From: an uncultured virus (IMG/VR IMGVR_UViG_3300025033_000016)
Lineage: Duplodnaviria; Heunggongvirae; Uroviricota; Caudoviricetes
DNA: 64,000 bases
Virus record (IMG/VR): IMGVR_UViG_3300025033_000016
Direction: 5' to 3' (one strand)
Below are positions 43,035-58,194 of this stretch, in pieces (within the stretch, counting starts at the first letter, position 1; each line of letters starts with the position of its first letter). The notes under the pieces are model-generated. The model did no database searches. It saw only the letters and a list, made by a program, of their open reading frames with translations, and was not told the origin of the DNA. A program made the position numbers and the translations under genes.

Positions 43035-44912
43035 TTAGTTTGGCCCCTGACATAAAATGTAAAATTCGTTATCGGTACATGCGTTTGTTGAGGACCCTGT
43101 TTGAGACACGCATCCGATAGAAGCAGCAGTGGGGCTTGTAATATTTATATGCGCACTTCTAATAGTTGTTGTTTCCGTCGTGTTGACACTGGGAACACAG
43201 GTAGGGTTTCCAGAATATGTTCCAACGGGGAAAGTAATGGCACACCTGTTGCCCGATATATTCCCTACAGTCACCCCATCGATAGAAGTTTCTTGAATTG
43301 CGGAGCTTGAAGAGCAGTTCAGTTTAATCCTATCTGTTTTCTCCACCCCCTCACTGCTAGTAGTCACCGCCTGCTTAAGCAAAGGAGCGGGAGTGTGCGC
43401 GTTCCAAATACAGCCAGTCATTGCTATGTTTGAAGGGTATGTTTCGGCTGCTGTTCTTGGCGTTCCGTTTGAACCATCTGATGATGGTGATGTAATAGCT
43501 ACGTTTGAGGTAGCTCCACCAGTTGTGGCGTTGGCGACATATGCGTCTGTTCTAATGCCAAGATTTGATGCTCCAGCAAAATAAGAAGCCCCACCTTGCT
43601 GCCATGTATGACTGTGAGGTGTTTCTGATTTGTTGTGATAGTGACCTTGAAGACGATCCTCAGTCACATCACCAAGTGCAGAACCTCCCTTCGATCTACC
43701 GTTAATGGTCTGACTACCAGTACCTCGAACAAACACACCTTCAAGATTCGGCAAGTTAAAAGTAGTCGATCCATCGCCAACACCAAAAGTTGTACCGATC
43801 ACATTAAATAAAGTCGCGTATGTTGAGCGAGATACCGCGCTTCCGTCTGCCTTTAAAGAGTTTGCGGGGCACGTTGACTTTGCAGAGTAGAACACCGTTC
43901 CCATTACGTCTGCGGTTTGCCCAATCTTCTGCACCTGCGAGGATGCGGAGGGGAAGCGTTTGATTTGTAGGTATGAAGTGTTCCCGGACGCCTGCCCTTC
44001 CATAGTCAGAGTAGAGGACGAGTTATTACCTGAACCAAAAAACCTAAAGCCAGCACTGAACCCGGCATCAATATCCGATTGTTTTACCTCAAACTCACAT
44101 TCAACAGATCGCGTTAAATTTTCCCCGGCTTGAGGCGTATCGCGCTGCCCTCTACAAAGATCAGTACTGCTATTGTAATCAAAGAAAGAAACGTAGTAGG
44201 TCGAATTTAATACGTTACTTGGAGAAATAGACGCTATGGCATATACGTTATATTTACCTGGTCTTTTCGGTTCAAATCTATATGTAGAAGTATTCCACTC
44301 CCCATAGTTGTCCCAATTTTCGGCATTTAACTCCAAAGCAACATATGATGCATTTGTGTTGATTCCAGTCTGGGGCGTGGATGCATAGGCTCTTATTATA
44401 CTCTCAGCCTGAGCCACAGTCCCCAAGTTAGTAGCCTCGCCTATGTAGAAATTACCAGCGTTAAAAGCAGCCGCAGCGTTATCAGTAGCTTCGATTACAA
44501 CAGCAGGTACAGCAGTGCCGCTAGAATAACATGGGAAGTTAAATGATATAGCTTGAGTACCAGAGGATACATTAGTAAGCTGCTGCTCTTGAGATACAAC
44601 AGTAGAGTCTGTCTGGACATAAGCCTTGTATAACGACGCGTCTCCGAAATAGTCGAACTTAGCTTCACAATTCTTGCCTTGTACTTCTTTAGTAAAAGCA
44701 CTAGCTAAGAACAGAGCCTTTTCACCGCTAGCATCAGCATTAATAGCAAAAGAGCTTACGCCATCTAGTGTGTTCGTAGTATCCCTAGTTACAATGCTAT
44801 CAGAGTCAGTAACATTGGCTATATTCTTAGATGCCTTAGGGTTTAGTATAAAATTCCTAGGTGAATTAATACCTTGGATATATGATGCTAATAATTGCCT
44901 GTTGGAACTCAT
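43035..44912 (-). CDS. Tail fiber / receptor-binding protein with tail-collar domain
   Basis: ADGSAVSRSTYATLFNVIGTTFGVGDGSTTFNLPNLEGVFVRG collar signature; C1q-like segment upstream. Confidence 0.85.
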   Translation of the reverse strand: MSSNRQLLASYIQGINSPRNFILNPKASKNIANVTDSDSIVTRDTTNTLDGVSSFAINADASGEKALFLASAFTKEVQGKNCEAKFDYFGDASLYKAYVQTDSTVVSQEQQLTNVSSGTQAISFNFPCYSSGTAVPAVVIEATDNAAAAFNAGNFYIGEATNLGTVAQAESIIRAYASTPQTGINTNASYVALELNAENWDNYGEWNTSTYRFEPKRPGKYNVYAIASISPSNVLNSTYYVSFFDYNSSTDLCRGQRDTPQAGENLTRSVECEFEVKQSDIDAGFSAGFRFFGSGNNSSSTLTMEGQASGNTSYLQIKRFPSASSQVQKIGQTADVMGTVFYSAKSTCPANSLKADGSAVSRSTYATLFNVIGTTFGVGDGSTTFNLPNLEGVFVRGTGSQTINGRSKGGSALGDVTEDRLQGHYHNKSETPHSHTWQQGGASYFAGASNLGIRTDAYVANATTGGATSNVAITSPSSDGSNGTPRTAAETYPSNIAMTGCIWNAHTPAPLLKQAVTTSSEGVEKTDRIKLNCSSSSAIQETSIDGVTVGNISGNRCAITFPVGTYSGNPTCVPSVNTTETTTIRSAHINITSPTAASIGCVSQTGSSTNACTDNEFYILCQGPN

Positions 44913-46816
44913 TAAATGTTATCCTCTCTCGCAGAAAGTCTCCAAAGAGACGCGCTGTCATCCCAGCGTAATGTTAGAATAGCGCCAGCATATGAAACCC
45001 ATGAACCGCTCATAGCGATACCATTACCATCTTCAAGTAAAATAGCGTTATCATCAGAAGTGCCTATGACGCGTAGAGTCTGTCCATCAACAGTACCAGC
45101 ACTTATCTGCGGGTTAGTCGTAACATCTACAATACCGCTAGCTGTGTCAACGTAGATATCCTCGTCAGTCCCCGCTGTGGCTGTAATGCCCGTAGCGTCT
45201 ATCTCGATAGGAGCTGCTGAAGTACCTGTTACAGTTCTACCGCCGCCGCCGCCGCCTGAGCCTCCAATAACACGCCATCTAGAATCCGTAGTATCATAGA
45301 ACATATAAAGACTAGCGCCGTCATCTAATCTGATATCCTGCCCGGTGCCTGTAAGAATCCTGTTAGCTGCTGTAACTATGGAACTAGACTCATTTTTAAC
45401 AGTAAACGTATCACCGCCGTCATTAGTCAACACAAAGAATAAAGAATCACTAGCTGGGGCTGTAATGCCCCCTACCTCATTAGTAAAGGAGCTTACATTG
45501 GTGAGTTTCTTAATATAAGTAGTTGGTAGAGATACCGGGTCAGAAGATCCGTAAAGAGTATTATCCTCTTGTTGAGTGCCTTTTAGAGCTGCTTCGAAGG
45601 TGTGGGTAGCTTCTGATTTAACTTCGCCAGTGCCTGACGGCACTAATCGTACATCAGTATTAGCGCCAGCCCCTGCTACTGCTCCATTAGTTCCAATGAA
45701 AAGATCATTAACTCTAACGAAGAGCCCATCAATATACACAGCGCCACTTAGAGCATCAAGGGTTAAGTCTGCTCCATTTGAGTTAATAGTATCAATGTTT
45801 AACACTGCGTTCATTATAACTTTACCTGTAGCAGCAGGGTCTATCGTCAAATCTCCAGTAGAGGTAGAGATAGTATTAGCATTTAATACAATATTATCTA
45901 TAACAACCTCAGTGGCTGTTAAGTTTAAATCACCTGAACTTACATCTATCGTATAGTCTCCGCTAGAGTGTGTGTGTGTTGTAGTACCGCCATTAGTTAG
46001 TATGCTAGTTCCTGATGCAACTAGATCATTACTTAAATTAATAACTCCAGTACCGTCAGCAGTTAGGGTTAAACTGCCATTAGTATTAGTTGCTGTAATG
46101 TTATTAGAAGTGTCTATTGTAACATTAGGTAGGACTAAGTCCCCAGCCGTAACTTCTAAATCCCCAGCCGTAACTTCTACTTTAGTTGTAGGCGCTAGGT
46201 TGATTGCGGCAGAGCTTTCTACTGAAAGCGTTCCTGCTGTAGACTCTAAGGTACTAGCTCCACCGTCTAGTGTGATAGTATCACCTGATACTACTAAATC
46301 GCTATCAATGTCTACATTACCGCCAGCTTCTGTAGTTAATACAATGCTATCAGTGCCTGTAGTAGTAAGCTCAATAACTCCTGTAGAAGTCACTTCAGTA
46401 CCAGTTACAGATAAATCTCCTAGTACTACGGAACCTGTACCATCTGGTACTAAGTTAATGTCTCCGTTAGTATCTGTAGCTGTGATGCTGTTGCCAGATA
46501 CTTCTAAGTTATCTACGTTCAATACTCCATTGACTGTTAGATCTTCAACATCTAGCTCAACGTCACCGTTCATTACAATCTTACCAGTACCATTGGGGTC
46601 TAATATAAGATCGCCGTTAGTGTTGGTAGTGCTGATAGTATTACCGTCTAGTTTAATATTATCAACTTCTACTGACTCTTCGATAATTACCTTTTGCCCA
46701 GAACCTGGGTCAATAGTTAAATCACCACTAGTGTTCTCAATAGTAGAATTTTCACCGTCTATGACGATGTTATCAGTAGTGATCTTTTTATCAATTATTC
46801 TTCCGACTTTACTCAT
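44912..46816 (-). CDS. Long tail fiber/shaft protein with beta repeats
   Basis: Repeated DN...GN.I..T.TNG.L.L.P.GTG units. Confidence 0.75.
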   Translation of the reverse strand: MSKVGRIIDKKITTDNIVIDGENSTIENTSGDLTIDPGSGQKVIIEESVEVDNIKLDGNTISTTNTNGDLILDPNGTGKIVMNGDVELDVEDLTVNGVLNVDNLEVSGNSITATDTNGDINLVPDGTGSVVLGDLSVTGTEVTSTGVIELTTTGTDSIVLTTEAGGNVDIDSDLVVSGDTITLDGGASTLESTAGTLSVESSAAINLAPTTKVEVTAGDLEVTAGDLVLPNVTIDTSNNITATNTNGSLTLTADGTGVINLSNDLVASGTSILTNGGTTTHTHSSGDYTIDVSSGDLNLTATEVVIDNIVLNANTISTSTGDLTIDPAATGKVIMNAVLNIDTINSNGADLTLDALSGAVYIDGLFVRVNDLFIGTNGAVAGAGANTDVRLVPSGTGEVKSEATHTFEAALKGTQQEDNTLYGSSDPVSLPTTYIKKLTNVSSFTNEVGGITAPASDSLFFVLTNDGGDTFTVKNESSSIVTAANRILTGTGQDIRLDDGASLYMFYDTTDSRWRVIGGSGGGGGGRTVTGTSAAPIEIDATGITATAGTDEDIYVDTASGIVDVTTNPQISAGTVDGQTLRVIGTSDDNAILLEDGNGIAMSGSWVSYAGAILTLRWDDSASLWRLSAREDNI

Positions 46817-47788: not shown

Positions 47789-48424
47789 CTATTTGTTGGG
47801 GAAGCTATTTATCCAAGATTCTATGGTAGAAAGGCTTACCGGAGCGTAGTTGTTAGCGCACACGCCTACGTCGAATTGGCGGCCTAGAATCTTAGTCGCC
47901 TCTTTCTTATTAGGACCTGAGTGTATATGACCTGAGATATGAAATTGCCCATTGTCAGGAGTAGAGCAGGCTCTGTGCTTAGGTCTATTTTCCCCGTGCC
48001 AATTATCTGTAACAAGGTCGGCTCCTGTTTTAGTATAATTAGAAGTGTCTTCTCTATACACCCCTAGTAGTGGGCAGTGGCTTAGGGTAACTCTTTGCTT
48101 TCCGACATAAATAACAGCCCCGTGCATAACGGCGTCGAATCCGGCTTCATACATGGCATTGTAGCCTTTATCGTGGTTGCCTACGATTAGTAATTTAGTA
48201 CCGTGGGTTTGACGTAAGAAGTTCTGTACTGAATGTGTATCAATGCCTACGTCGCCTAGAAAGTAAGTAATGCCGTTGGTAGGTACAGTATTGTTGAATC
48301 TAACTACCAAGGCTTCAAACATATGCTCTACGTCTTTAAACGGTCGTTTATCATATTCAATTGATCTAGCGTGGCCTAGGTGTAGATCTGCTGTGAAGAA
48401 TACGGGCTTGCGTTTGTTACTCAT
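47789..48424 (-). CDS. Metallophosphoesterase
   Basis: ADLHLGH, LGD, GNHD, GHIH, DVGV. Confidence 0.9.
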   Translation of the reverse strand: MSNKRKPVFFTADLHLGHARSIEYDKRPFKDVEHMFEALVVRFNNTVPTNGITYFLGDVGIDTHSVQNFLRQTHGTKLLIVGNHDKGYNAMYEAGFDAVMHGAVIYVGKQRVTLSHCPLLGVYREDTSNYTKTGADLVTDNWHGENRPKHRACSTPDNGQFHISGHIHSGPNKKEATKILGRQFDVGVCANNYAPVSLSTIESWINSFPNK

Positions 48425-49949
48425 GTAGAGAATCTCCTAATGTTAATGTATATTTAGCTTGTCCGGCGTCATAAATGCGATACCAGCCTTTAGTTTCAGC
48501 TTCAGCTCTAGTCTTAGCCTTGCGCCTGTTATATGTATTGTTACCGTCTGTCCACTTCCACCCTAGAGACTCAGACACCTTAGTAAAGCCCAGTTTCGTA
48601 AGGGAGTGGCCGTCCGCATATCTACAATCTACAAAACTTACAACTTGTCTTGTACTGGTTAACCCTATTATATACTTAAGGAGCTTGCTAAGTCCTCCTA
48701 CTACTACAGTGTGGAGCTTAGTACAAACTCTATCTAGCTCTACCTTATCTTCCTTCTTGTAGTGCTTATAGCTTATAATCATTAGCAGCTCATCCCCATT
48801 CCATAAGCCTATATGCTGGGTATTGTGTATACCGCCCATTAAGTGGTTTAGTTCTAGAAAGTCGAATCCTTGGTACGTATCTACGGGTTTAATATCTAAT
48901 TTCCTAGCATAGTGTCTAGTGATGTTCTTGCCATGCCTAGCGTCTAACATAGACTTAATGATATGTGGCCTTTTGATAAGCTCGTCAGCTCGGTATTGTA
49001 GTAATACTAAGCCTGCCTTTTCATAAGCTAGCCTCTTAGTTTTGTGGTATTGGTTATCTTTTCGATACTTCTCAGAGTGATAAAGTAGTCCATCTAGATC
49101 TACGTACAAAGTGTCTGAGATTTTAACATCCGGCCTATAGTCGAAATCTTGGTGTATCTTTTTATTAACTCGGGCAGACTGGTAGTCCTTAGTAAGGGCT
49201 AAGAACACAAGCTCTAGATTACTAATATTAGACTTATGATTATCTATCCAATCCTGAGCTGCTTGTGGGCTTATAGTCCTAAAGATAAGGTTAGCATACT
49301 GCGGGCAGGGATTGGTGTCAAACTCTGCACAATACTGGCTGACATACTTGCCGTTAGGTAGTACATTTAGTTTGTCGTTAGCTTCGTACTTAGATAGCAC
49401 CTTGTCTAATTGCTTTTGTCTAATGTCTGGGTCATGCATAGGATTCTCATGTCCATATCTGGCTAGGCTAGTTGCTCTCATTCTAGCTTGTACTTTTTTG
49501 GACTTAGCTGGATTATCTACGCCGTAATTAGCTAATGTAGTAGCTCGCTGTTTATCTCGAATCTCTTGGGAGCGCATAGGATTCGTAACCCCGTGGTTTT
49601 TTAGTAGGGTCCTCTTTGCCTTTTCTTGGAACTTTGTTAGCTGAGCGGCGTGTTCTACGCCATACCTAAGCTTTGTAGTAGCTTTACGCTTTGCTTGCAC
49701 TTCTGGGTTACTACTTGTGTGCGTAGTTCCGTATCGTTGTATATTGGTTTGCTCTCTGCGGGCTTGTATTGCCTCAGGATGCGTTGAAATAGGTCCAGTA
49801 GATACTCGCTTACCCGCGTCTTCCATGGCCTTTATAGAGCTTTTAAATGCGCCGTACGTGGAATCTAGGAAGTCTAGCTTGGTTTCCTTGGTGTAGCGCT
49901 CTGGTAGCGCTTGAGCTAGGCTAACTCCTTCGGGTAGTTCGTACTTCAT
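48417..49949 (-). CDS. Free-standing homing-endonuclease-like protein (YG-x-x-NP repeats + Vsr/PD-(D/E)XK-like domain + C-terminal domain)
   Basis: Five T...RYG...P-type repeats; RPD...DLDGLLYHS; C-terminal IYDAG. Confidence 0.65.
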   Translation of the reverse strand: MKYELPEGVSLAQALPERYTKETKLDFLDSTYGAFKSSIKAMEDAGKRVSTGPISTHPEAIQARREQTNIQRYGTTHTSSNPEVQAKRKATTKLRYGVEHAAQLTKFQEKAKRTLLKNHGVTNPMRSQEIRDKQRATTLANYGVDNPAKSKKVQARMRATSLARYGHENPMHDPDIRQKQLDKVLSKYEANDKLNVLPNGKYVSQYCAEFDTNPCPQYANLIFRTISPQAAQDWIDNHKSNISNLELVFLALTKDYQSARVNKKIHQDFDYRPDVKISDTLYVDLDGLLYHSEKYRKDNQYHKTKRLAYEKAGLVLLQYRADELIKRPHIIKSMLDARHGKNITRHYARKLDIKPVDTYQGFDFLELNHLMGGIHNTQHIGLWNGDELLMIISYKHYKKEDKVELDRVCTKLHTVVVGGLSKLLKYIIGLTSTRQVVSFVDCRYADGHSLTKLGFTKVSESLGWKWTDGNNTYNRRKAKTRAEAETKGWYRIYDAGQAKYTLTLGDSLHE

Positions 49950-49992: not shown

Positions 49993-50022
49993 AAAAGCCC
50001 CCAGCAGGTTAGTGCTGAGGGC
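49993..50022 (-). terminator. Intrinsic terminator after the major capsid gene
   Basis: GCCCTCAGCA-loop-TGCTGGGGGC followed by TTTT. Confidence 0.8.
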
Positions 50023-50046
50023 CTTCTTAGTTAGTTGCTAGTAGGG

Positions 50047-52210
50047 TTAGCTATTAGTAATGCCAGTAACCAAGATAAGTTGGTTAGGGGCGTGGCAGAA
50101 TAGAGCTAGGTCGCAGTATGCGCGGAGCTCAAACCCAGCACTAGCTTGCAATTCTCGGAAGAACCTATCATTATCGTGTCCTGGCAATTGGAACGTGATG
50201 TCGGTAGAACCAATCAACTGAACCGCTTTATCAGGCATGATGAACGCTAGGGACTCTTTAACGTAGCTGCAAGGTACGATTTCAATAGGACCAGTCTGAC
50301 CGTAGAACTTAATAGACTCAGAACCATTCTCAGAAACTGAGCGGCTGTAAGAGCTGTCAAGCATACGAAGAGCAGCTTGGTCGCTAAGAAGCTCAGCCCA
50401 AGTGCGGTTAGAAACTAGAACTTTAACTCCAGAATCAAGACCACGAGCAGCGCCCTTAGAGATAGCTTCTTGAATCTTCTCGAAAGAAAGATCAGCGCCA
50501 CCAGCAGCATACTCAGTTGCACGCCATACGTTGAAAGACTGAGGGTTGATACCGAACAAGTCAGTAGAACCATCAGAGTAGGCAGTCATGATACCATGAA
50601 GACCCAGCATTTCTTTCCACTCAGTAGCAGCGTCGTCGTAAGCGCCTTCGAACATAACTCTGTCACCAGCAGTCAAAGTAAGAGCTGCGCCGTCAACAGT
50701 GATAGTTTTAGTATCAAGGTTGATTCCTGTGATAGTACGTGCTGTAGAAGTACGGTCAGTAGCTAGGTCAGAAGAGAAGATCTCGACTTTAGCACCTTCC
50801 AAACCGTTCCAGATACCAGGAGCCCAAGAAGCGTCACTGATTACTAGAGTGTTTACAGCTGAAGTGTTAGCGTTAACTAGGCCGATTTCTTTTTGTCCGT
50901 AGAACATAGAGATCTCTAGACGCTTAGCGAAAGAGCGAAGCATGTCAGCTACGATGAGCTTAGTAGCTTGCTCGAAAGCTGCAGGGGAAGCTGCGGATCG
51001 AGATACTGCGTCGTAAGAAAGCTTAGTTCGAGCTACCATAGAGTAACCTTTAATAGAAGCGTTCTTAGTTTGAGCAGCTACTGCATCGTTGAGGTCATAA
51101 GCGTCACCGTCAGATCCACCATAAGTGAAACCTTGAGATTGCTTAACGATTACTGGTTGTTGGTAAGCGTCACCGAGCTTTTTAGCTGCGTTGAACTTAA
51201 CCATGTTATAAAGAACTACGTTGTCCGGGATGAGGTTTTCTACCTTGTCGGCGTATACTTTTTTCGTTATATTCCCGTATTACTACGGGCACTGACTATA
51301 TCATCACCTTTTTCAAGGGTCTGGCGCTGTAAAAGCCTTTGTTGGTAAATGGTTTCTATGTATCTAAATTTATAGCGCATAGATTTGAATTGAAGAATAA
51401 ACTCTCTAACATACTCCCACAGTTTAAGTGAGTCCGCCTGTCCAAATTTAAGGTAAGGGTAGTGCTTGTTACGTTTAGAGCTTTTTTGCGATCCAAATTT
51501 AACATTAACATTAAAATTGTCGCTAAACCAAAGTCTAATCTTATCTAGAGATTCTATAGATTCGCTACATAGGTAGATTCTAACTCTACCTCCGTATAAC
51601 TTTTTTCCGCTTTTAATTTTAGATATCGAGGGTTCTATATACCCGTCATCTATTAAAAGCATAGCTAACGCCATTTCAGGATGCTCTACGAACCTTAGCA
51701 TTCTAGATAGGTCCTTGGAGTTATTTGGATAGCACCATTTTCTCCATGATCTAAGACGCTTAACGCATACTGAAACTTGTAAGGCTCCATTTGATTGAGG
51801 TCTTACATTAACAGTACGGTTGAATATCTTAGATAGTAAGGAAGCTTTCCACTTAAGGATATCGGCTTGTTCTTTACAGTGACCTATTGTAAGTCCTCCG
51901 TATAGCTTGCCTGCATTTCTTATGTAATGCAAACAACCGTCTCCCATAGCTAAACACATAACTAGACTACGTTTATCTCTATTATTCATTTTTTACCTCT
52001 AACCCGCTTATAGCGATCAAGATTACTTAGCTTTTTAGTCGATGAACCTTCCGACTTAGTTTGTCGGCTTGGCTGCTGATTGCCCTAGATTACTAGGGTT
52101 TCCAGCAATTCACCAGATTTTCTAGCATAATGCTAGGAGGGGTCTAACCTCAACTATTCTAAAAGTTAAAAAAGTCCATCAAGTTGTGATACTGTTACAT
52201 TTTGTGCCAT
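50047..52210 (-). CDS. Major capsid protein, spliced (exon1 52169-52210, exon2 50047-51264; 419 aa)
   Basis: Follows portal and scaffold; strong SD AAGGAG before ATG 52210; exons join in frame as MAQNVTVSQLDGLF/KKVYADKVENLIPD; terminator downstream. Confidence 0.8.
51265..52168 (-). ncRNA. Group I self-splicing intron (904 nt)
   Basis: P AATTGCTGGAAA, Q AATCAGCAGC, R GTTCATCGACTA, S GATGATATAGTC in order; exon ends in U, intron ends in G; terminal hairpin CCCGTAGTAATACGGG. Confidence 0.9.
51267..51989 (-). CDS. Intron-encoded LAGLIDADG homing endonuclease
   Basis: Two motifs MCLAMGDG and LAMLLIDDG; KFRY near the C-terminus. Confidence 0.85.
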   Translation of the reverse strand: MNNRDKRSLVMCLAMGDGCLHYIRNAGKLYGGLTIGHCKEQADILKWKASLLSKIFNRTVNVRPQSNGALQVSVCVKRLRSWRKWCYPNNSKDLSRMLRFVEHPEMALAMLLIDDGYIEPSISKIKSGKKLYGGRVRIYLCSESIESLDKIRLWFSDNFNVNVKFGSQKSSKRNKHYPYLKFGQADSLKLWEYVREFILQFKSMRYKFRYIETIYQQRLLQRQTLEKGDDIVSARSNTGI

Positions 52211-52380
52211 TTTAATTTCTCCTTAAATACCATTTGAATTACTTAGTTTGTTATTTTCATACCAACTAAATAAGCCTTCTTAAGCCAGAGTTCGGGTATC
52301 CAAGAGCCCTATTAAGGGTATCTGAGAGCCGTATACTACTAACTACAAGCTAAACTTATAGTAGGTCGTTACAAAGGGGC

Positions 52381-53516: not shown

Positions 53517-54596
53517 TTACTTACTTAGCATCAGAGCCGCTAATCCCATCATGGTATAATTAACGTCTGGTCCGGTTTCTCCAGTTTTGAAGTTGCTGTC
53601 TGCAATCATCATTTGAGGCCACGTTACGGCTCCAGTGTATGATCGTAGGTAGTTAATAGTTAATTGCTTACGTTCCTGATCTACAAGACCTACATTGTAG
53701 GCTAGCGAAGTAATCCACGGTTGAGGTCTGCCTCTAGGTCCGTTACTATCTATCATAGAAAGTCCTGATTTGTAATCTTTACCAAGCTTACACAAAGACC
53801 ATAGATTTAAAGCGCATATGTGTTGAGTGTAGAATATCTGACCAGCTACATCTTTAGTATACATTGCAGGTACGTGCTTAAAGTACCAAACTCCAGCTAG
53901 TACATAATGCAGCTTAGCAATTAGTTTCCATACTCCTCCTAGCTCACTAGCAGCTAGCTCTAGTATAGCTTGGCTAGTTAATACTCCAGGGCCTGTTAGC
54001 GGGTTAGCTAAGCTAAATCCTATGTTCTTACCTTTAACTGTCCACTCTTCGGCTGTTACGTTTAAGCCAAAGTTAGAGCTTCTATTTGAAACTTTGCCCT
54101 TTTCATTCCAGAGAATACCAAAGCAGTTCTTTAGATAATGCGTAGCCACTTTCTTAACTAGGGGCTTATTGTCTATGTTCCACAAGATATAATTAAATAC
54201 CCAACTACTCATCCCATCTCCGCTAGGTCCTAGATAGGGCTCGCCTTCAGAGCCATCAGGTCTACGTTCTCGATATAACGATCCGTTAGGTTTAACTACT
54301 AGCTCAATTAGAGACTGTGCTGCTATAGGATTAAATAGTCCTAATCCAGACTGCGTTAGTAGCGTATGTGTCTCTTTACCTAAGAATATATGTTCTCCAG
54401 GCTTAGTCTCCTTAGCGCTATGGATAAGGCTCTCTAGATCGTGTTTAGGGCTTGGTAGGACTTCTATATCACCGAAGTCATTCCTTACCCTCAAATAAAA
54501 ATAAGGCGTATACAACATTTGAAGCAGTACGAATATCATGTTCAAAGGCCACAGCAATACAGCTAGTGTCCACCTTAATATTTGATGTGCGTTCAT
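53517..54596 (-). CDS. Hypothetical protein with N-terminal TM
   Basis: Long ORF between portal and scaffold. Confidence 0.6.
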   Translation of the reverse strand: MNAHQILRWTLAVLLWPLNMIFVLLQMLYTPYFYLRVRNDFGDIEVLPSPKHDLESLIHSAKETKPGEHIFLGKETHTLLTQSGLGLFNPIAAQSLIELVVKPNGSLYRERRPDGSEGEPYLGPSGDGMSSWVFNYILWNIDNKPLVKKVATHYLKNCFGILWNEKGKVSNRSSNFGLNVTAEEWTVKGKNIGFSLANPLTGPGVLTSQAILELAASELGGVWKLIAKLHYVLAGVWYFKHVPAMYTKDVAGQIFYTQHICALNLWSLCKLGKDYKSGLSMIDSNGPRGRPQPWITSLAYNVGLVDQERKQLTINYLRSYTGAVTWPQMMIADSNFKTGETGPDVNYTMMGLAALMLSK

Positions 54597-54598
54597 TA

Positions 54599-56677
54599 TT
54601 AGAATCCTTCGCCAATAATGTTAGCCATACCCTCAGCTGCTGTAATAGGTAAATCTGGATTACCTGCTGGAGCTGGCATATTAGGTAAGCTTACTCCATC
54701 AATAGCAGCTGCTGGATTTACAGGAGCTAGAGAGGCTCCAGAACCCTCTACAGGAGCAGGGGCTCCTTCTGGAGGCATTCCACCTTCTGGAGGCATTGGT
54801 GCTCCCTCAGGGCCTTGTGGAGCGTCTGGTGGGATAGGTTGCTGACCTAGAGCTACTAGAATGTTAGGGTCTGTAGTCTTGAGAGCTTCGATGTGCTCAT
54901 TGATGTGCTGAGTAGCAGCTGCAATAAGTTCTGGATTGTCTCTAAGAGCTGGGTCATTAAATACAGCCTTATGTTGCTTAATGTGAGCAATATGATCGTC
55001 TGTAATCATTACAGGAGGGGATACTCCATCCATAAGCTTCTCGTTCTCAGCTCTAATTAAGATAAGCTCGCTTTGAGCACCTTCAACCATGCTGTCTAGG
55101 CTGCCTGTGTTAAGTACAGTAAAGTAGTCCTCTACGTTGTCAATGATGTTGTACTGAATTAGGTTGTTGGCCATCTCTAGCTTACCGCCAGTAGTTCTGC
55201 TGACAGGGTTAGCTACTTCTACGAATACTCGGTTAATTGATTGCAAATCGTCGCCTTTGAACTTCTTGAGCAAGGCTCGTTTGTTTTGACCTACGATAGC
55301 GGCTACGCGCTCTGTCTCAGCAAAGTCCTTAAGCAAGTTAATCGTACCAGTGCCTACGTCTTCCATGAGTTTGATATAGGAATGTTGGAGTCCAGAGATA
55401 AACTGAATAGACTGAGCTTGGATTAGGGCTAGGGAGTTACCAGATCTTAAGCTGGCTTCTGGATTACCACGAGTAACGCTGTTGATACCTGAGATAGTCT
55501 CCATAGTAGACTCTAGCTTATTGAGCATATTGAATACTTCAGCTGGAGTTTGAGTTAGGTTTAGAGCCTCAGGCTTGTTCATGCCTTGTTGGTACTCTAT
55601 GATGTTAAGACCGCCGTTAAGCTGCGTTAGGTTAATATCAGAGCCCTTAGGTAGCATAATATTCTGCACACCGAAGGCATTCTGGTTTGTGATGATAGTG
55701 CTGTTTAGCATGTTGATAGCTTCTTGAATCGGAAGAAGGTCAAACAGGGAAGTATATCCAAACGGAGTTCCCATAATATCGGCATATCGGATATCAAAGC
55801 ATGGAATAAATCTATAGGGTAGTGGAATGTCAATTAGCGGAGTTTCAGCGTCTGCAAACATCATGTATCGGCCTTCAGGAACGGCCTCTGTGCGCTTGTG
55901 GAAGAACTCATATACTGGGATGTCATCTGTTTCGTTACTACGTCCAATAGTCAGGCGGTAACTGCTTTCGCTGTCTCTAGTCTCAATAGCAATAAGCTGC
56001 TCTTCGTACTCAGGGTACTTGGCAATCAAGTTAGCCTTGTTGATATATGATTTTACGATTAACCACTCATGCTCTTGGGAGTCGTCTTTATGTACGTCTC
56101 GGATAACACGTAATGGATGTAGGGCTTCATATTCAATATCCCCATCATGTATATAAGTACCTGTGTCTTCATTAAAGCCTACTACTTCGCCTGAAGTAGC
56201 GTTCCAGCCCATCTTAACCCAACCTTCTCCCAATACTACAGCATAGTCTACGGATTTCTTCATAACCCGTTCCATGTTCTTTTCTCTCATGTAGTAATCT
56301 AGGAGTCCGTTAGCTAGATAGGCTTGGCTAAGGGATTTACTGTCTGTATTAACAGCTTGTGCTTGTAGGGCAGGTCTTTGGCTAGTCGTGAGGTTAATCA
56401 TATGCTCGCCGATGTTCCTGAAGTGATTTACAGGGAAGAATACTAACTCACCTTGCTCTCCAGTCATGTTAAGTTGGTGAGATTCTACGTTAAAATCGTC
56501 TAACTCACTGAAATTACCGTGGTAGAACTTCCAGCTCTTGTACATCTTAGATAGCAGCCCGGAGTCCAATAAGGAAGCTTCCCAGTCTTGCACCTTACCT
56601 ACTAGAACGTCTACGCATTCGTCTGTGTCTTTAGCCGCAAAATACTGATATCGTTTTTGTTTTTTATCTTCTTCCAT
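54599..56677 (-). CDS. Portal protein (P22-like size and position)
   Basis: Follows terL; G.GWVK..W, L.P.Q..IN, SG.....G motifs; Pro-rich tail. Confidence 0.85.
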   Translation of the reverse strand: MEEDKKQKRYQYFAAKDTDECVDVLVGKVQDWEASLLDSGLLSKMYKSWKFYHGNFSELDDFNVESHQLNMTGEQGELVFFPVNHFRNIGEHMINLTTSQRPALQAQAVNTDSKSLSQAYLANGLLDYYMREKNMERVMKKSVDYAVVLGEGWVKMGWNATSGEVVGFNEDTGTYIHDGDIEYEALHPLRVIRDVHKDDSQEHEWLIVKSYINKANLIAKYPEYEEQLIAIETRDSESSYRLTIGRSNETDDIPVYEFFHKRTEAVPEGRYMMFADAETPLIDIPLPYRFIPCFDIRYADIMGTPFGYTSLFDLLPIQEAINMLNSTIITNQNAFGVQNIMLPKGSDINLTQLNGGLNIIEYQQGMNKPEALNLTQTPAEVFNMLNKLESTMETISGINSVTRGNPEASLRSGNSLALIQAQSIQFISGLQHSYIKLMEDVGTGTINLLKDFAETERVAAIVGQNKRALLKKFKGDDLQSINRVFVEVANPVSRTTGGKLEMANNLIQYNIIDNVEDYFTVLNTGSLDSMVEGAQSELILIRAENEKLMDGVSPPVMITDDHIAHIKQHKAVFNDPALRDNPELIAAATQHINEHIEALKTTDPNILVALGQQPIPPDAPQGPEGAPMPPEGGMPPEGAPAPVEGSGASLAPVNPAAAIDGVSLPNMPAPAGNPDLPITAAEGMANIIGEGF

Positions 56678-56691
56678 AATGAAACCTCGGT

Positions 56692-58194
56692 TTATTTGTT
56701 ACGCTTCTTTATAAAGAGGCCCTTGAACGCCTCTTGGGTTGGGGTCAGGTAAGTCTGATTCACAGCTCCCATTTGATAGGAGTGATCTACGCCTTTGTTG
56801 GGGTACGGATTCTTATGCCAAGCCACCATACGCACTAAATATATCATTCCATCCAGGAGATCGTAGTGTTTTGCCTTCGCTGTACGTTCAAAAGTACGCA
56901 TATTCTTGGCCCAAGTCGCCGCTTCTAGTTGGTATATTAAATTTTTACATCTTGGATGAATTATAATTTTATGTTGTTGTAGTTTAATCCTAAGATTGTT
57001 GATAGCCGCAGCCTTATCATCTTTAGGCACTGGTACAAAAGTAAGGCCGTGTAGCTGTGCTAAGTCATTTAATAAGATAGGTTCATTATCACTTACCCTA
57101 AGATAAACTGGCCTGATATTACCGTTAATATCTTTCCACAGCTCAGTCTCTTTTCGTACTACCTCGGTGGCTATTCCTTCACTAGTTACCTGACTTCCGT
57201 TAGCAAGGTATTCATCTTCAATTACTAGCTTACCTTGATTGAAGTCTAGATATGCAAATAGGACTCCGGTATTATCTGTGACTCCTGGGTCCATAGAAGT
57301 ATACGCATCGTAATAAGACGGTCTTGGGTTTTCTTTGACGATATGCGTCTGTAGCTCATGCGTAAACTCTGGTATTACCATCGACTCAAGTTCGGAAATT
57401 ATCATGCATAGATACTCACGTTTCCAAGTAGATGAGTCTTCTCCTCCAGATAGCTCTTTTAATATCTCTACCTGCTCTGCATCTAGATGAGATCTGAGAT
57501 GTGGCGGATCGTTTTTAACTGCGTCTAATACTTGATAGATAGTCTGCTCAATGTAAGCATCATTTAGCTTAGCTTCTCGTATAAAGTCTACGAAGTCATG
57601 TCCTGTAGATTTAGGCGCAGAACTAGACAGAATTAGTCTGCCTTTTGTGGTTAAGGTTTGAGGTAATAGAATATCTTTAATTAGGTACTCTAGGTCCTTT
57701 ACGAAACCTGCCTCGTCTATAATACCTAAATCGGTACTAGTTCCCCTGAGTCTTTCAGCATTGCCTTCATCAGCCCCTTCGATTTGAAGCTTAGCTCCAT
57801 TATGGAACTTGTAGCACCTATCGTGCTTGTAATATCTTGGTTTGATTTCTTCTGGGCAATCTGATAATACCTGTGGCATATTCTGGCTAATGATCTTAGT
57901 AGCCATTACGGAAGTTCCGCATACATAGTGGACGGTAGCATTGGGAGTTTGTAGGCAAGTCTCAATAGCTAGTACTAAAAGGCCGTAACTCTTACCTGTA
58001 CGTCTAGATTGATTTACTACTGGTAGTTTGTATGCGTTATCTATTAAAAGCTGTCTAACTTTTTTCTGAGCCGAGTTGAGTTTCCAGTGTAGAATACCCT
58101 TCTTCCATAGAAGAGCTACTGCCTCATTCTTAGTCGGCTTTAGGCTTAGATTTTTGCCCTGCTGGGTCTTTGGCTTTGCTGACTTTTTTGGCAT
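56692..58194 (-). CDS. terL: Terminase large subunit
   Basis: SRRTGKS Walker A, LRG, IIDEAG Walker B, REY.C, DPG, HYDLLD. Confidence 0.9.
   Translation of the reverse strand: MPKKSAKPKTQQGKNLSLKPTKNEAVALLWKKGILHWKLNSAQKKVRQLLIDNAYKLPVVNQSRRTGKSYGLLVLAIETCLQTPNATVHYVCGTSVMATKIISQNMPQVLSDCPEEIKPRYYKHDRCYKFHNGAKLQIEGADEGNAERLRGTSTDLGIIDEAGFVKDLEYLIKDILLPQTLTTKGRLILSSSAPKSTGHDFVDFIREAKLNDAYIEQTIYQVLDAVKNDPPHLRSHLDAEQVEILKELSGGEDSSTWKREYLCMIISELESMVIPEFTHELQTHIVKENPRPSYYDAYTSMDPGVTDNTGVLFAYLDFNQGKLVIEDEYLANGSQVTSEGIATEVVRKETELWKDINGNIRPVYLRVSDNEPILLNDLAQLHGLTFVPVPKDDKAAAINNLRIKLQQHKIIIHPRCKNLIYQLEAATWAKNMRTFERTAKAKHYDLLDGMIYLVRMVAWHKNPYPNKGVDHSYQMGAVNQTYLTPTQEAFKGLFIKKRNK

What the first reader, a model, noticed from the sequence alone, without database searches (positions are those of the whole stretch)
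51265..52210. Group I intron with homing endonuclease interrupts the major capsid gene after codon 14
Seen: exon1 (MAQNVTVSQLDGLF) is followed by an in-frame TAA that begins the intron. P, Q, R and S elements follow in order. The LAGLIDADG ORF starts after R and runs through S and the last hairpin, stopping 2 nt before the terminal G. Exon2 resumes KKVYADKVENLIPD. Established: phage group I introns are mostly reported in DNA-metabolism genes (td, nrdB, nrdD, DNA polymerase) and less often in late genes. Here production of the most abundant virion protein would depend on splicing. The ORF track truncates the capsid by 34 residues. The exact junction is inferred from reading frame.
Basis: partly seen in the sequence, partly recalled or inferred. 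Interest (0 to 1): 0.75.

Follow-up and report, generated by a model that had tools for sequence, protein, structure and literature searches.

The report
Spliced intron in phage capsid gene
The only major capsid gene of this uncultured aquifer phage is split after codon 14 by a 904-base group I intron that carries a predicted DNA-cutting homing enzyme gene, and one RNA-library contig shows the exons joined exactly; this is a known kind of selfish element, though 7 of 31 related introns end in A instead of the almost universal G.

Summary
Confirmed. Exon 1 (52210-52169, 14 codons) and exon 2 (51264-50047) flank a 904-nt group I intron. Joined, they give 419 aa, the length of the three closest homologs (80-81% identical), which are uninterrupted. 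Across 32 introns at this capsid site the group I core covaries: 92.5% of cells paired, 41 of 58 pairs with two-sided changes, 0/500 shuffles as high. One metatranscriptome contig (depth 2.5) reads from exon 1 into 17 nt of exon 2 at the predicted junction; six DNA runs continue into the intron. The LAGLIDADG_2 gene lies in the loop of a long-range P7.1 stem, with its ribosome-binding site in a conserved hairpin and its last 23 codons doubling as ribozyme core. Capsid-gene introns are already known (LittleE, Tuc2009, crAss-like phages), so this is a new member of a known kind. The more unusual point concerns relatives, not this window: 7 of 31 end in A, at least four changes between G and A are needed on the tree, and all seven keep both P9.0 and an in-register P10 (0 of 25 G-ending introns; post hoc, one later exception).

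The parts
52219..52224 (-). Shine-Dalgarno-like AAGGAG, 8 nt before the exon 1 ATG
   Evidence: read from sequence
52169..52210 (-). Major capsid exon 1 (14 codons), ends in U
   Evidence: matches N-termini of P0002-P0005
51265..52168 (-). Group I intron, 904 nt, ends in G
52154..52174 (-). P1: exon 52174-52169 paired with internal guide sequence 52159-52154, U.G at the 5' splice site; intron 52166-52161 can form a 6-bp P10 with exon 2 nt 3-8
   Evidence: (P1 97.9% paired)
52122..52151 (-). P2 and P2.1 hairpins
   Evidence: (P2 95.3% paired)
52046..52117 (-). P3 5' strand (52117-52111), P4, P5, P6, P6a (P and Q elements)
   Evidence: 93.5-100% paired
52031..52042 (-). P7 5' strand (R element, G-site) and 5' strand of the long-range P7.1 stem
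51995..52023 (-). Conserved hairpin that pairs the endonuclease Shine-Dalgarno (51999-51995)
   Evidence: helices 12 and 13, about 95% paired, all 7 pairs with two-sided changes; MFE -7.7 kcal/mol, z -1.1, weak on its own
51267..51989 (-). LAGLIDADG_2 homing endonuclease ORF, 240 aa, in the P7.1 loop
   Evidence: PF03161, 35.7 bits, cut-off 25; phrog_11023; D17, D114, D115 invariant in 51 sequences; weak I-SceI matches, E 0.011-0.02
51266..51335 (-). Dual-use stretch: last 23 endonuclease codons form P7.1 3' (51335-51331), P3 3' (51326-51320), P8, P7 3' (S, 51298-51293), P9.0 and P9
50047..51264 (-). Major capsid exon 2 (405 codons plus stop)
   Evidence: phrog_14242 major head protein, E 7.3e-15
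49993..50026 (-). Terminator-like hairpin after the capsid gene
   Evidence: consensus match only; 1 found, 2.1 expected in shuffles

Best explanation
A 904-nt group I intron interrupts the phage's major capsid gene after codon 14, one RNA-library contig shows the exons joined at the predicted site, and the intron is likely a self-splicing mobile element whose LAGLIDADG enzyme is predicted to copy it into intron-free capsid genes of co-infecting relatives. Steps: (1) The precursor folds P1 with a U.G pair at the end of exon 1 and the P3-P7 core (structure shown by covariation). (2) Exogenous G cuts the 5' site, the terminal G is placed by P9.0 and P10, and the exons ligate to give the 419-aa capsid frame (product seen once; chemistry inferred from group I biochemistry). 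(3) Unspliced RNA would give only a 14-aa peptide because of the in-frame TAA (read from sequence). (4) The endonuclease gene is looped out by a long-range P7.1 stem, and its ribosome-binding site is paired in a conserved hairpin, which likely keeps ribosomes off the 23 codons that double as catalytic core (structure shown; regulation inferred from T4 I-TevI). (5) The enzyme would cut the conserved intron-free site and drive homing (inferred from family and patchy distribution; not tested).
For: P0002-P0004 are 419 aa, 80-81% identical and uninterrupted; 106 of 119 listed homologs keep the junction motif. Covariation on 32 introns: 92.5% of 1829 cells paired against 75.4% shuffled and 38-49% in slid controls; 41 of 58 pairs with two-sided changes; the P7 G-C pair in 32 of 32 and P1 U.G in 31 of 32. 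RNA run X24, record 15 (191 nt), lies on 52169-52342 and its 17-nt loose end equals the + strand of 51248-51264, a 17-mer found once in the genome. 6 of 6 DNA runs run on from exon 1 into the intron, and X24 also holds an intron-internal contig (51821-52012). 50 of 56 loci fetched with the endonuclease have the capsid exon directly downstream at the same site, 3 of them this phage itself. The window's capsid sits in a starred clade with 14 intron-free proteins, and the intron label needs at least 4 changes on an 84-row tree. Intron GC is 0.376 against 0.461 in exon 2.
Against: The RNA evidence is one contig at depth 2.5 with 17 nt on the short side, below the tool's 31-nt bar for a bridged joint, and no DNA run of that RNA sample was laid. 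X24 covers the 20-kb stretch in 11 scattered contigs, so DNA carry-over is not excluded. The Rfam score is 0.2 bits under the cut-off. P8 and P9 are poorly supported on the alignment (46.9% and 62.6% paired; variable length). The ribosome-site hairpin is not significant on its own. No internal promoter was found for the endonuclease. The capsid tree mixes two sampling routes (intron-free by capsid likeness, intron-bearing by endonuclease), which biases the clustering. Cleavage and homing are untested.
Confidence: 0.93

Rival explanations
1. The intron is real and spliced, but splicing in vivo needs protein help, with the intron-encoded LAGLIDADG protein acting as a maturase or a host chaperone assisting.
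For: About 700 nt separate the two halves of the core, and a Thermotoga intron LAGLIDADG protein has maturase-like activity (PMC3984707, passages). All family members fetched carry the ORF, but they were found through it.
Against: The core is canonical and complete. Translating the ORF would unfold P3, P7 and P8, and its ribosome-binding site is paired in a conserved hairpin. ORF-less introns occur at other sites of the same gene family (L011, 109.6 bits).
Confidence: 0.2
2. The junction contig comes from an intron-free allele (DNA or its transcript) in the RNA sample, not from splicing; the intron is still a group I intron but splicing was not observed.
For: One short contig at low depth; no matching DNA run for that sample; intron-free relatives are common.
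Against: The contig is 99% or more identical to this genome, whereas the nearest intron-free capsids are about 80% identical in protein. 6 of 6 DNA runs show only the intron-bearing form, and the same RNA run holds intron sequence.
Confidence: 0.1
3. The element is retained because its endonuclease helps the phage destroy intron-free competitors' capsid genes during co-infection, not only because it homes.
For: The target is an essential, conserved site, and interference by an intron endonuclease is reported for phage PhiPA3 (PMC11620839, search listing and start of abstract only).
Against: No data here separate this from plain homing; the two are not exclusive.
Confidence: 0.25
4. The capsid gene is simply disrupted by an insertion and a shorter capsid is made from the 51204 Met.
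For: Gene callers list the 385-aa form on 37 contigs.
Against: The missing 34 residues are conserved in 106 of 119 homologs, no Shine-Dalgarno sequence is evident before 51204, the ribozyme covaries and a joined RNA contig exists.
Confidence: 0.02

Closest known systems
Capsid-gene intron of mycobacteriophage LittleE (Pope et al. 2013, PMC3706429; passages read)
   Same: Single major capsid gene split by an intron of about 0.8-0.9 kb with exon-terminal U, terminal G and a putative LAGLIDADG ORF; splicing shown there by RT-PCR.
   Different: The LittleE ORF is on the opposite strand and its intron class was called only 'most likely' group I. Here the ORF is sense, in a P7.1 loop, overlaps the core, and the full group I core covaries. 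No relative of this endonuclease was found among 50,697 phage records.
Major capsid gene introns of crAss-like Delta and Zeta phages (Yutin et al. 2021, PMC7886860; passages read)
   Same: Group I introns in MCP, up to five fragments in one gene; relatives here also carry two or three breaks.
   Different: Different phage group: 78-kb aquifer phage with P22-like portal and phrog_14242 capsid. No alternative code is needed here.
T4 td intron with I-TevI (Edgell et al. 2010, PMC2988022; passages read)
   Same: ORF 3' end extends into the intron structure, and the ribosome-binding site is sequestered by a hairpin that protects splicing.
   Different: GIY-YIG enzyme, DNA-metabolism gene, T4 late promoter inside the intron. 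Here a LAGLIDADG_2 enzyme, a capsid gene, and no promoter found in this copy.
Synechococcus 23S rRNA introns L1917 and L2593 (Haugen et al. 2007, PMC1995217; passages read)
   Same: LAGLIDADG ORFs running through P7, P3 and P8 into P9; L2593 has short P5, short P2 and a P7 extension.
   Different: Single-motif enzymes in rRNA genes; the L1917 ORF starts in P6. Here a two-motif enzyme starts after P7 5'.
Hexacoral mitochondrial ND5-717 intron ending in A (PMC6545197, PMC8146996; passages read)
   Same: Natural terminal A with exact exon ligation; applies to 7 relatives, not to the window's intron.
   Different: There it is a fixed trait of one obligatory intron; here G and A alternate within one mobile family at one site.

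Membership tests
Group I intron | U at the end of the 5' exon paired with G in P1 | tested here: met
   Window U52169.G52159; 31 of 32 family rows U.G, guide sequence covaries with the exon
Group I intron | P3-P4-P6-P7 core with P3/P7 pseudoknot and G-binding G-C pair | tested here: met
   P3 98.7%, P4 98.9%, P6 100%, P7 99.0% paired; G-C pair 32 of 32
Group I intron | Terminal G with P9.0 and P10 | tested here: met
   G51265; P9.0 2 of 2 pairs; 6-bp P10 with exon 2 nt 3-8
Group I intron | Rfam RF00028 at or above the gathering score | tested here: inconclusive
   49.8 against 50 bits for the 5' half, 29.2 for the 3' half; the ORF splits the core
Group I intron | Exact exon ligation in RNA | tested here: met
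   One metatranscriptome contig, 17 nt on the short side, depth 2.5; thin
Group I intron | Guanosine-dependent self-splicing | not testable with these tools
   Needs an in vitro assay
Subgroup IA2 (classic phage introns) | P7.1 and P7.2 hairpins linked by G-U-A between P7 and P3 (criterion from PMC3428280) | tested here: not met
   One long-range stem encloses a hairpin and the ORF and is joined to P3 by ACAG. A P7 extension is present, so the intron is IA-like; no subgroup models were available and none is assigned.
LAGLIDADG_2 homing endonuclease (PF03161) | Profile match above cut-off with two acidic motifs | tested here: met
   35.7 bits against 25; D17 and D114/D115 invariant in 51 sequences
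LAGLIDADG_2 homing endonuclease (PF03161) | Cleaves the intron-free allele and drives homing | not testable with these tools
   Indirect only: same site in 50 of 56 loci, patchy on the capsid tree
Phage major capsid protein (phrog_14242) | Profile match and position after terminase, portal and scaffold-like gene | tested here: met
   E 7.3e-15 over residues 1-396; terminase 56692-58194 and portal 54599-56677. No fold was predicted.

The most novel reading that the evidence does not exclude
This capsid-site family is a natural series in which the near-universal terminal G is dispensable. Seven of 32 introns end in A with an intact G-binding pair, in an essential and highly expressed gene, and the tree needs at least four changes between G and A. 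All seven have both P9.0 and a P10 starting at exon 2 base 1, a combination found in 0 of 25 G-ending members. The 3' splice site would then be fixed by any two of three signals (terminal G, P9.0, in-register P10), and A is tolerated or favoured once both helices are present.
Probability: 0.5. Interest if true: 0.62.

Novelty: new member of a known kind. Interest (0 to 1): 0.4.

Why it matters
For the window: the capsid gene is mis-called (34 residues short) and the most abundant virion protein depends on splicing, here with a trace of the joined RNA from an environmental sample. That is useful annotation but expected biology. For the family: 32 diverged introns at one site give a covariation-backed model of a phage intron type that standard Rfam thresholds miss, with a two-motif LAGLIDADG gene in P7.1, and a set of candidate homing enzymes for one conserved target. 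The A-ending members, including a close pair that differs (L018 G, L037 A), make a long-standing question directly testable with natural sequences: how the 3' splice site is chosen without a terminal G.

Tried and rejected
Rfam at the gathering threshold gave 0 hits; the E-value scans found the intron and no second one in the window or the 78,078-bp genome. Of 14 in-frame junction registers with exon-terminal T and intron-terminal G, two give 419 aa; only 52169/51265 fits the homologs, P1 and the RNA contig. Placing the ORF in P8 was rejected because P3 3' and a short P8 lie downstream of it. A sigma-70 promoter inside the window's intron was not found (best 8 of 12). tblastn of the endonuclease against 50,697 phage records gave no match; the capsid gave one 24% match, a Silvanigrella prophage, too weak to name a host. 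The genome-contig scan gave 2 short contigs in Bacteroidota bins, not used as host evidence. A held-out test of the A-ending pattern largely failed for lack of new members: pattern scans and a scan with P0206 returned only known family loci, and of 199 new loci 14 had this capsid. The one new complete member, L067, has terminal G, P9.0 and a 5-bp in-register P10 (read by eye), which breaks the 'never all three' half of the pattern. With a relaxed P10 definition the contrast falls to 7 of 7 against 10 of 25, p 0.008. In-frame G alternatives exist 3 nt downstream for 2 of 7 A-ending introns; they would delete a conserved Lys and were judged less likely. A Coxiella intron ending in A is recalled only; searches did not confirm it. 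Searches for a printed case of this architecture showed none, but I read passages of 11 papers only, no supplements, and the library lacks most subscription papers. No structure prediction was run.

Full report
Observation. On the minus strand an ATG at 52210, 8 nt after an AAGGAG, opens 14 codons that end in Gly-Leu-Phe and meet an in-frame TAA. A 240-aa ORF (51989-51267) and a 385-aa ORF (51204-50047) follow. Removing 52168-51265 (904 nt, ending in G) gives a 419-aa frame. Exon 2 matches phrog_14242, major head protein (E 7.3e-15), downstream of terminase and a P22-like portal. The genome is 78,078 bp with direct terminal repeats, rated 100% complete, and holds no second RF00028 match. It occurs in aquifer and hot-spring metagenome runs; the host is unknown.

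Homologs fix the junction. Exon 2 found 455 proteins, of which 120 were listed. The three closest are 419 aa, 80-81% identical, and continue through the junction without a break. 106 of the 119 non-self proteins keep the motif that spans the junction; the other 13 are truncated calls, some probably intron-split.

RNA. Of 24 runs listed, one is RNA (X24). Its record 15 (191 nt, depth 2.5) lies on 52169-52342 and has a 17-nt loose end at 52169. That end equals the + strand of 51248-51264, the first 17 nt of exon 2, and occurs once in the genome. The cut is unambiguous because the intron starts with T and ends with G while exon 2 starts with A and exon 1 ends with T. All 6 DNA runs laid bridge 52169 into the intron and show no joint. 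X24 also has a contig inside the intron. Limits: one contig, under the tool's 31-nt bar, no DNA run of that sample, and scattered X24 cover (11 contigs over 20 kb) that does not exclude DNA carry-over.

Structure. RF00028 scores 49.8 bits on the 5' half and 29.2 on the 3' half. The endonuclease has 86 listed homologs including itself. Its alignment fetched 56 loci; 50 have the capsid exon directly downstream at the same site, 3 end inside the ORF, and 3 are other cases (L029, L030, L057). One search left 37 distinct complete rows; I dropped four near-duplicates (L016, L043, L051, L061) and L058 (no exon 1), corrected two 5' ends, and aligned 32. With the structure read from the window, 92.5% of 1829 cells pair, 41 of 58 pairs change on both sides, and 0 of 500 shuffles reach any measure; slid controls pair 38-49%. 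The shuffle ignores relatedness and the structure came from one of the rows, so these are not probabilities. P1, P3, P4, P6 and P7 are 98-100% paired; P8 and P9 align poorly (47%, 63%). P3 3' lies at 51326-51320, after the ORF body, and a long-range stem (52035-52031 with 51335-51331; 87-94% paired, all 5 pairs covarying) closes the ORF. The gene therefore sits in a P7.1 loop and its last 23 codons are also ribozyme. A covarying hairpin pairs its Shine-Dalgarno sequence.

Mechanism. Shown: the split gene, the conserved fold, one joined RNA contig. Inferred from group I biochemistry: two transesterifications, with the 3' site placed by the terminal G, P9.0 and P10 (PMC6155759, passages). Inferred from T4: the hairpin limits translation through the core, as for I-TevI (PMC2988022, passages). 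Inferred: homing. The window's capsid nests among 14 intron-free proteins in a starred clade, and the label needs 5 changes (at least 4 forced) on 84 rows, made of 24 intron-bearing loci and the top 60 of 106 intron-free proteins. This fits recent gain, though the sampling is biased.

Family oddities. In the family register 23 introns end in G, 7 in A and 2 in C. The two C cases (L017, L022) read as G when both splice sites move one base upstream, and L067 shows the same shift. The A-ending introns (L021, L034, L037, L041, L042, L048, L055) keep the P7 G-C pair. A needs 6 changes on the best tree and at least 4 on starred branches, and L043 and L044 repeat the L042 end. All 7 have both P9.0 and a P10 of 4 bp or more starting at exon 2 base 1, against 0 of 25 G-ending introns (Fisher p 3e-7, post hoc, not corrected for kinship). 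At a 3-bp threshold it is 1 of 25, and with a relaxed P10 register 10 of 25. L067, found later, has all three signals. No RNA was examined for any A-ending member.

Comparison with what is known. Capsid-gene introns are in print: LittleE with RT-PCR proof and a putative LAGLIDADG ORF, Tuc2009 (seen only as a citation there), and crAss-like MCP genes. ORFs overlapping the core are described. A phrog_11023 enzyme is recorded once in a Bastillevirinae DNA polymerase intron, and that paper argues that phage introns fit the subgroups poorly (PMC11878797, passages). LAGLIDADG enzymes are not listed among those most often found in phage introns. Terminal A with exact ligation is known from hexacoral ND5-717. 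Earlier notes of this scan list 45 findings with the words group intron, major capsid and LAGLIDADG and three A-ending phage introns; these are unchecked leads, and none matched this sequence. My searches showed no description of this family or of a two-motif LAGLIDADG gene in P7.1, within a library that lacks most subscription papers; supplements were not read and could list such introns.

Verdict. Interest 0.4: raised by the RNA junction, the covariation-backed anatomy and the A-ending relatives; held down by clear precedent and by the thinness of the RNA and held-out evidence.

Noticed in passing
L021, L034, L037, L041, L042-L044, L048, L055 (3' ends of the same-site intron): Introns end in A, not G, with an intact G-binding pair; all have P9.0 and an in-register P10. 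L018 (G) and L037 (A) are a close pair.
   Followed up: partly
L017:2326, L022:2289, L067 near 570 (5' splice sites): Both splice sites appear shifted one base upstream, inside the Phe codon; L017 also has a divergent P4-P6 region with the same endonuclease family.
   Followed up: partly
L004, L011-L018, L021, L029, L033, L042, L048 (capsid profile positions about 47-51, 56, 60-61, 69-73, 82): The first 85 codons of this capsid family are an intron hot spot, with two or three breaks per gene and exons as short as about 14 codons (L014). Several inserts carry GIY-YIG-looking ORFs (by eye); Rfam confirmed three as group I (L011 109.6, L014 98.8, L015 30 bits).
   Followed up: partly
L018, L037, L048 (P2.1) and L041 (P6a): Perfect TTGACA-17-TATAAT promoters inside peripheral intron hairpins upstream of the endonuclease gene in 4 of 32 introns; absent in the window.
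   Followed up: no
L073, L097, L104, L145, L147, L210, L079: Distant LAGLIDADG_2 relatives, most placed just after the R element, precede major head protein exons of other families in 6 of 9 loci scanned, thymidylate synthase in 1, unassigned in 2.
   Followed up: partly
window 48417-49949 (-): 510-aa ORF right after the capsid terminator matching homing endonuclease PHROGs (phrog_3339, E 2.8e-55) and DUF7487; no intron signal around it, probably free-standing.
   Followed up: no
window 53517-54596 (-): 359-aa ORF between portal and the scaffold-like gene with no Pfam or PHROG match.
   Followed up: no
window 51273-51306: A 1122-nt contig of another element in runs X1, X20 and X22 shares 34 nt with the S-P9 part of the intron, probably another group I intron in the same community.
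   Followed up: no
window 44442-44640 and 45470-45533: Clusters of variant letters in tail-region genes in run X21, suggesting a second strain.
   Followed up: no
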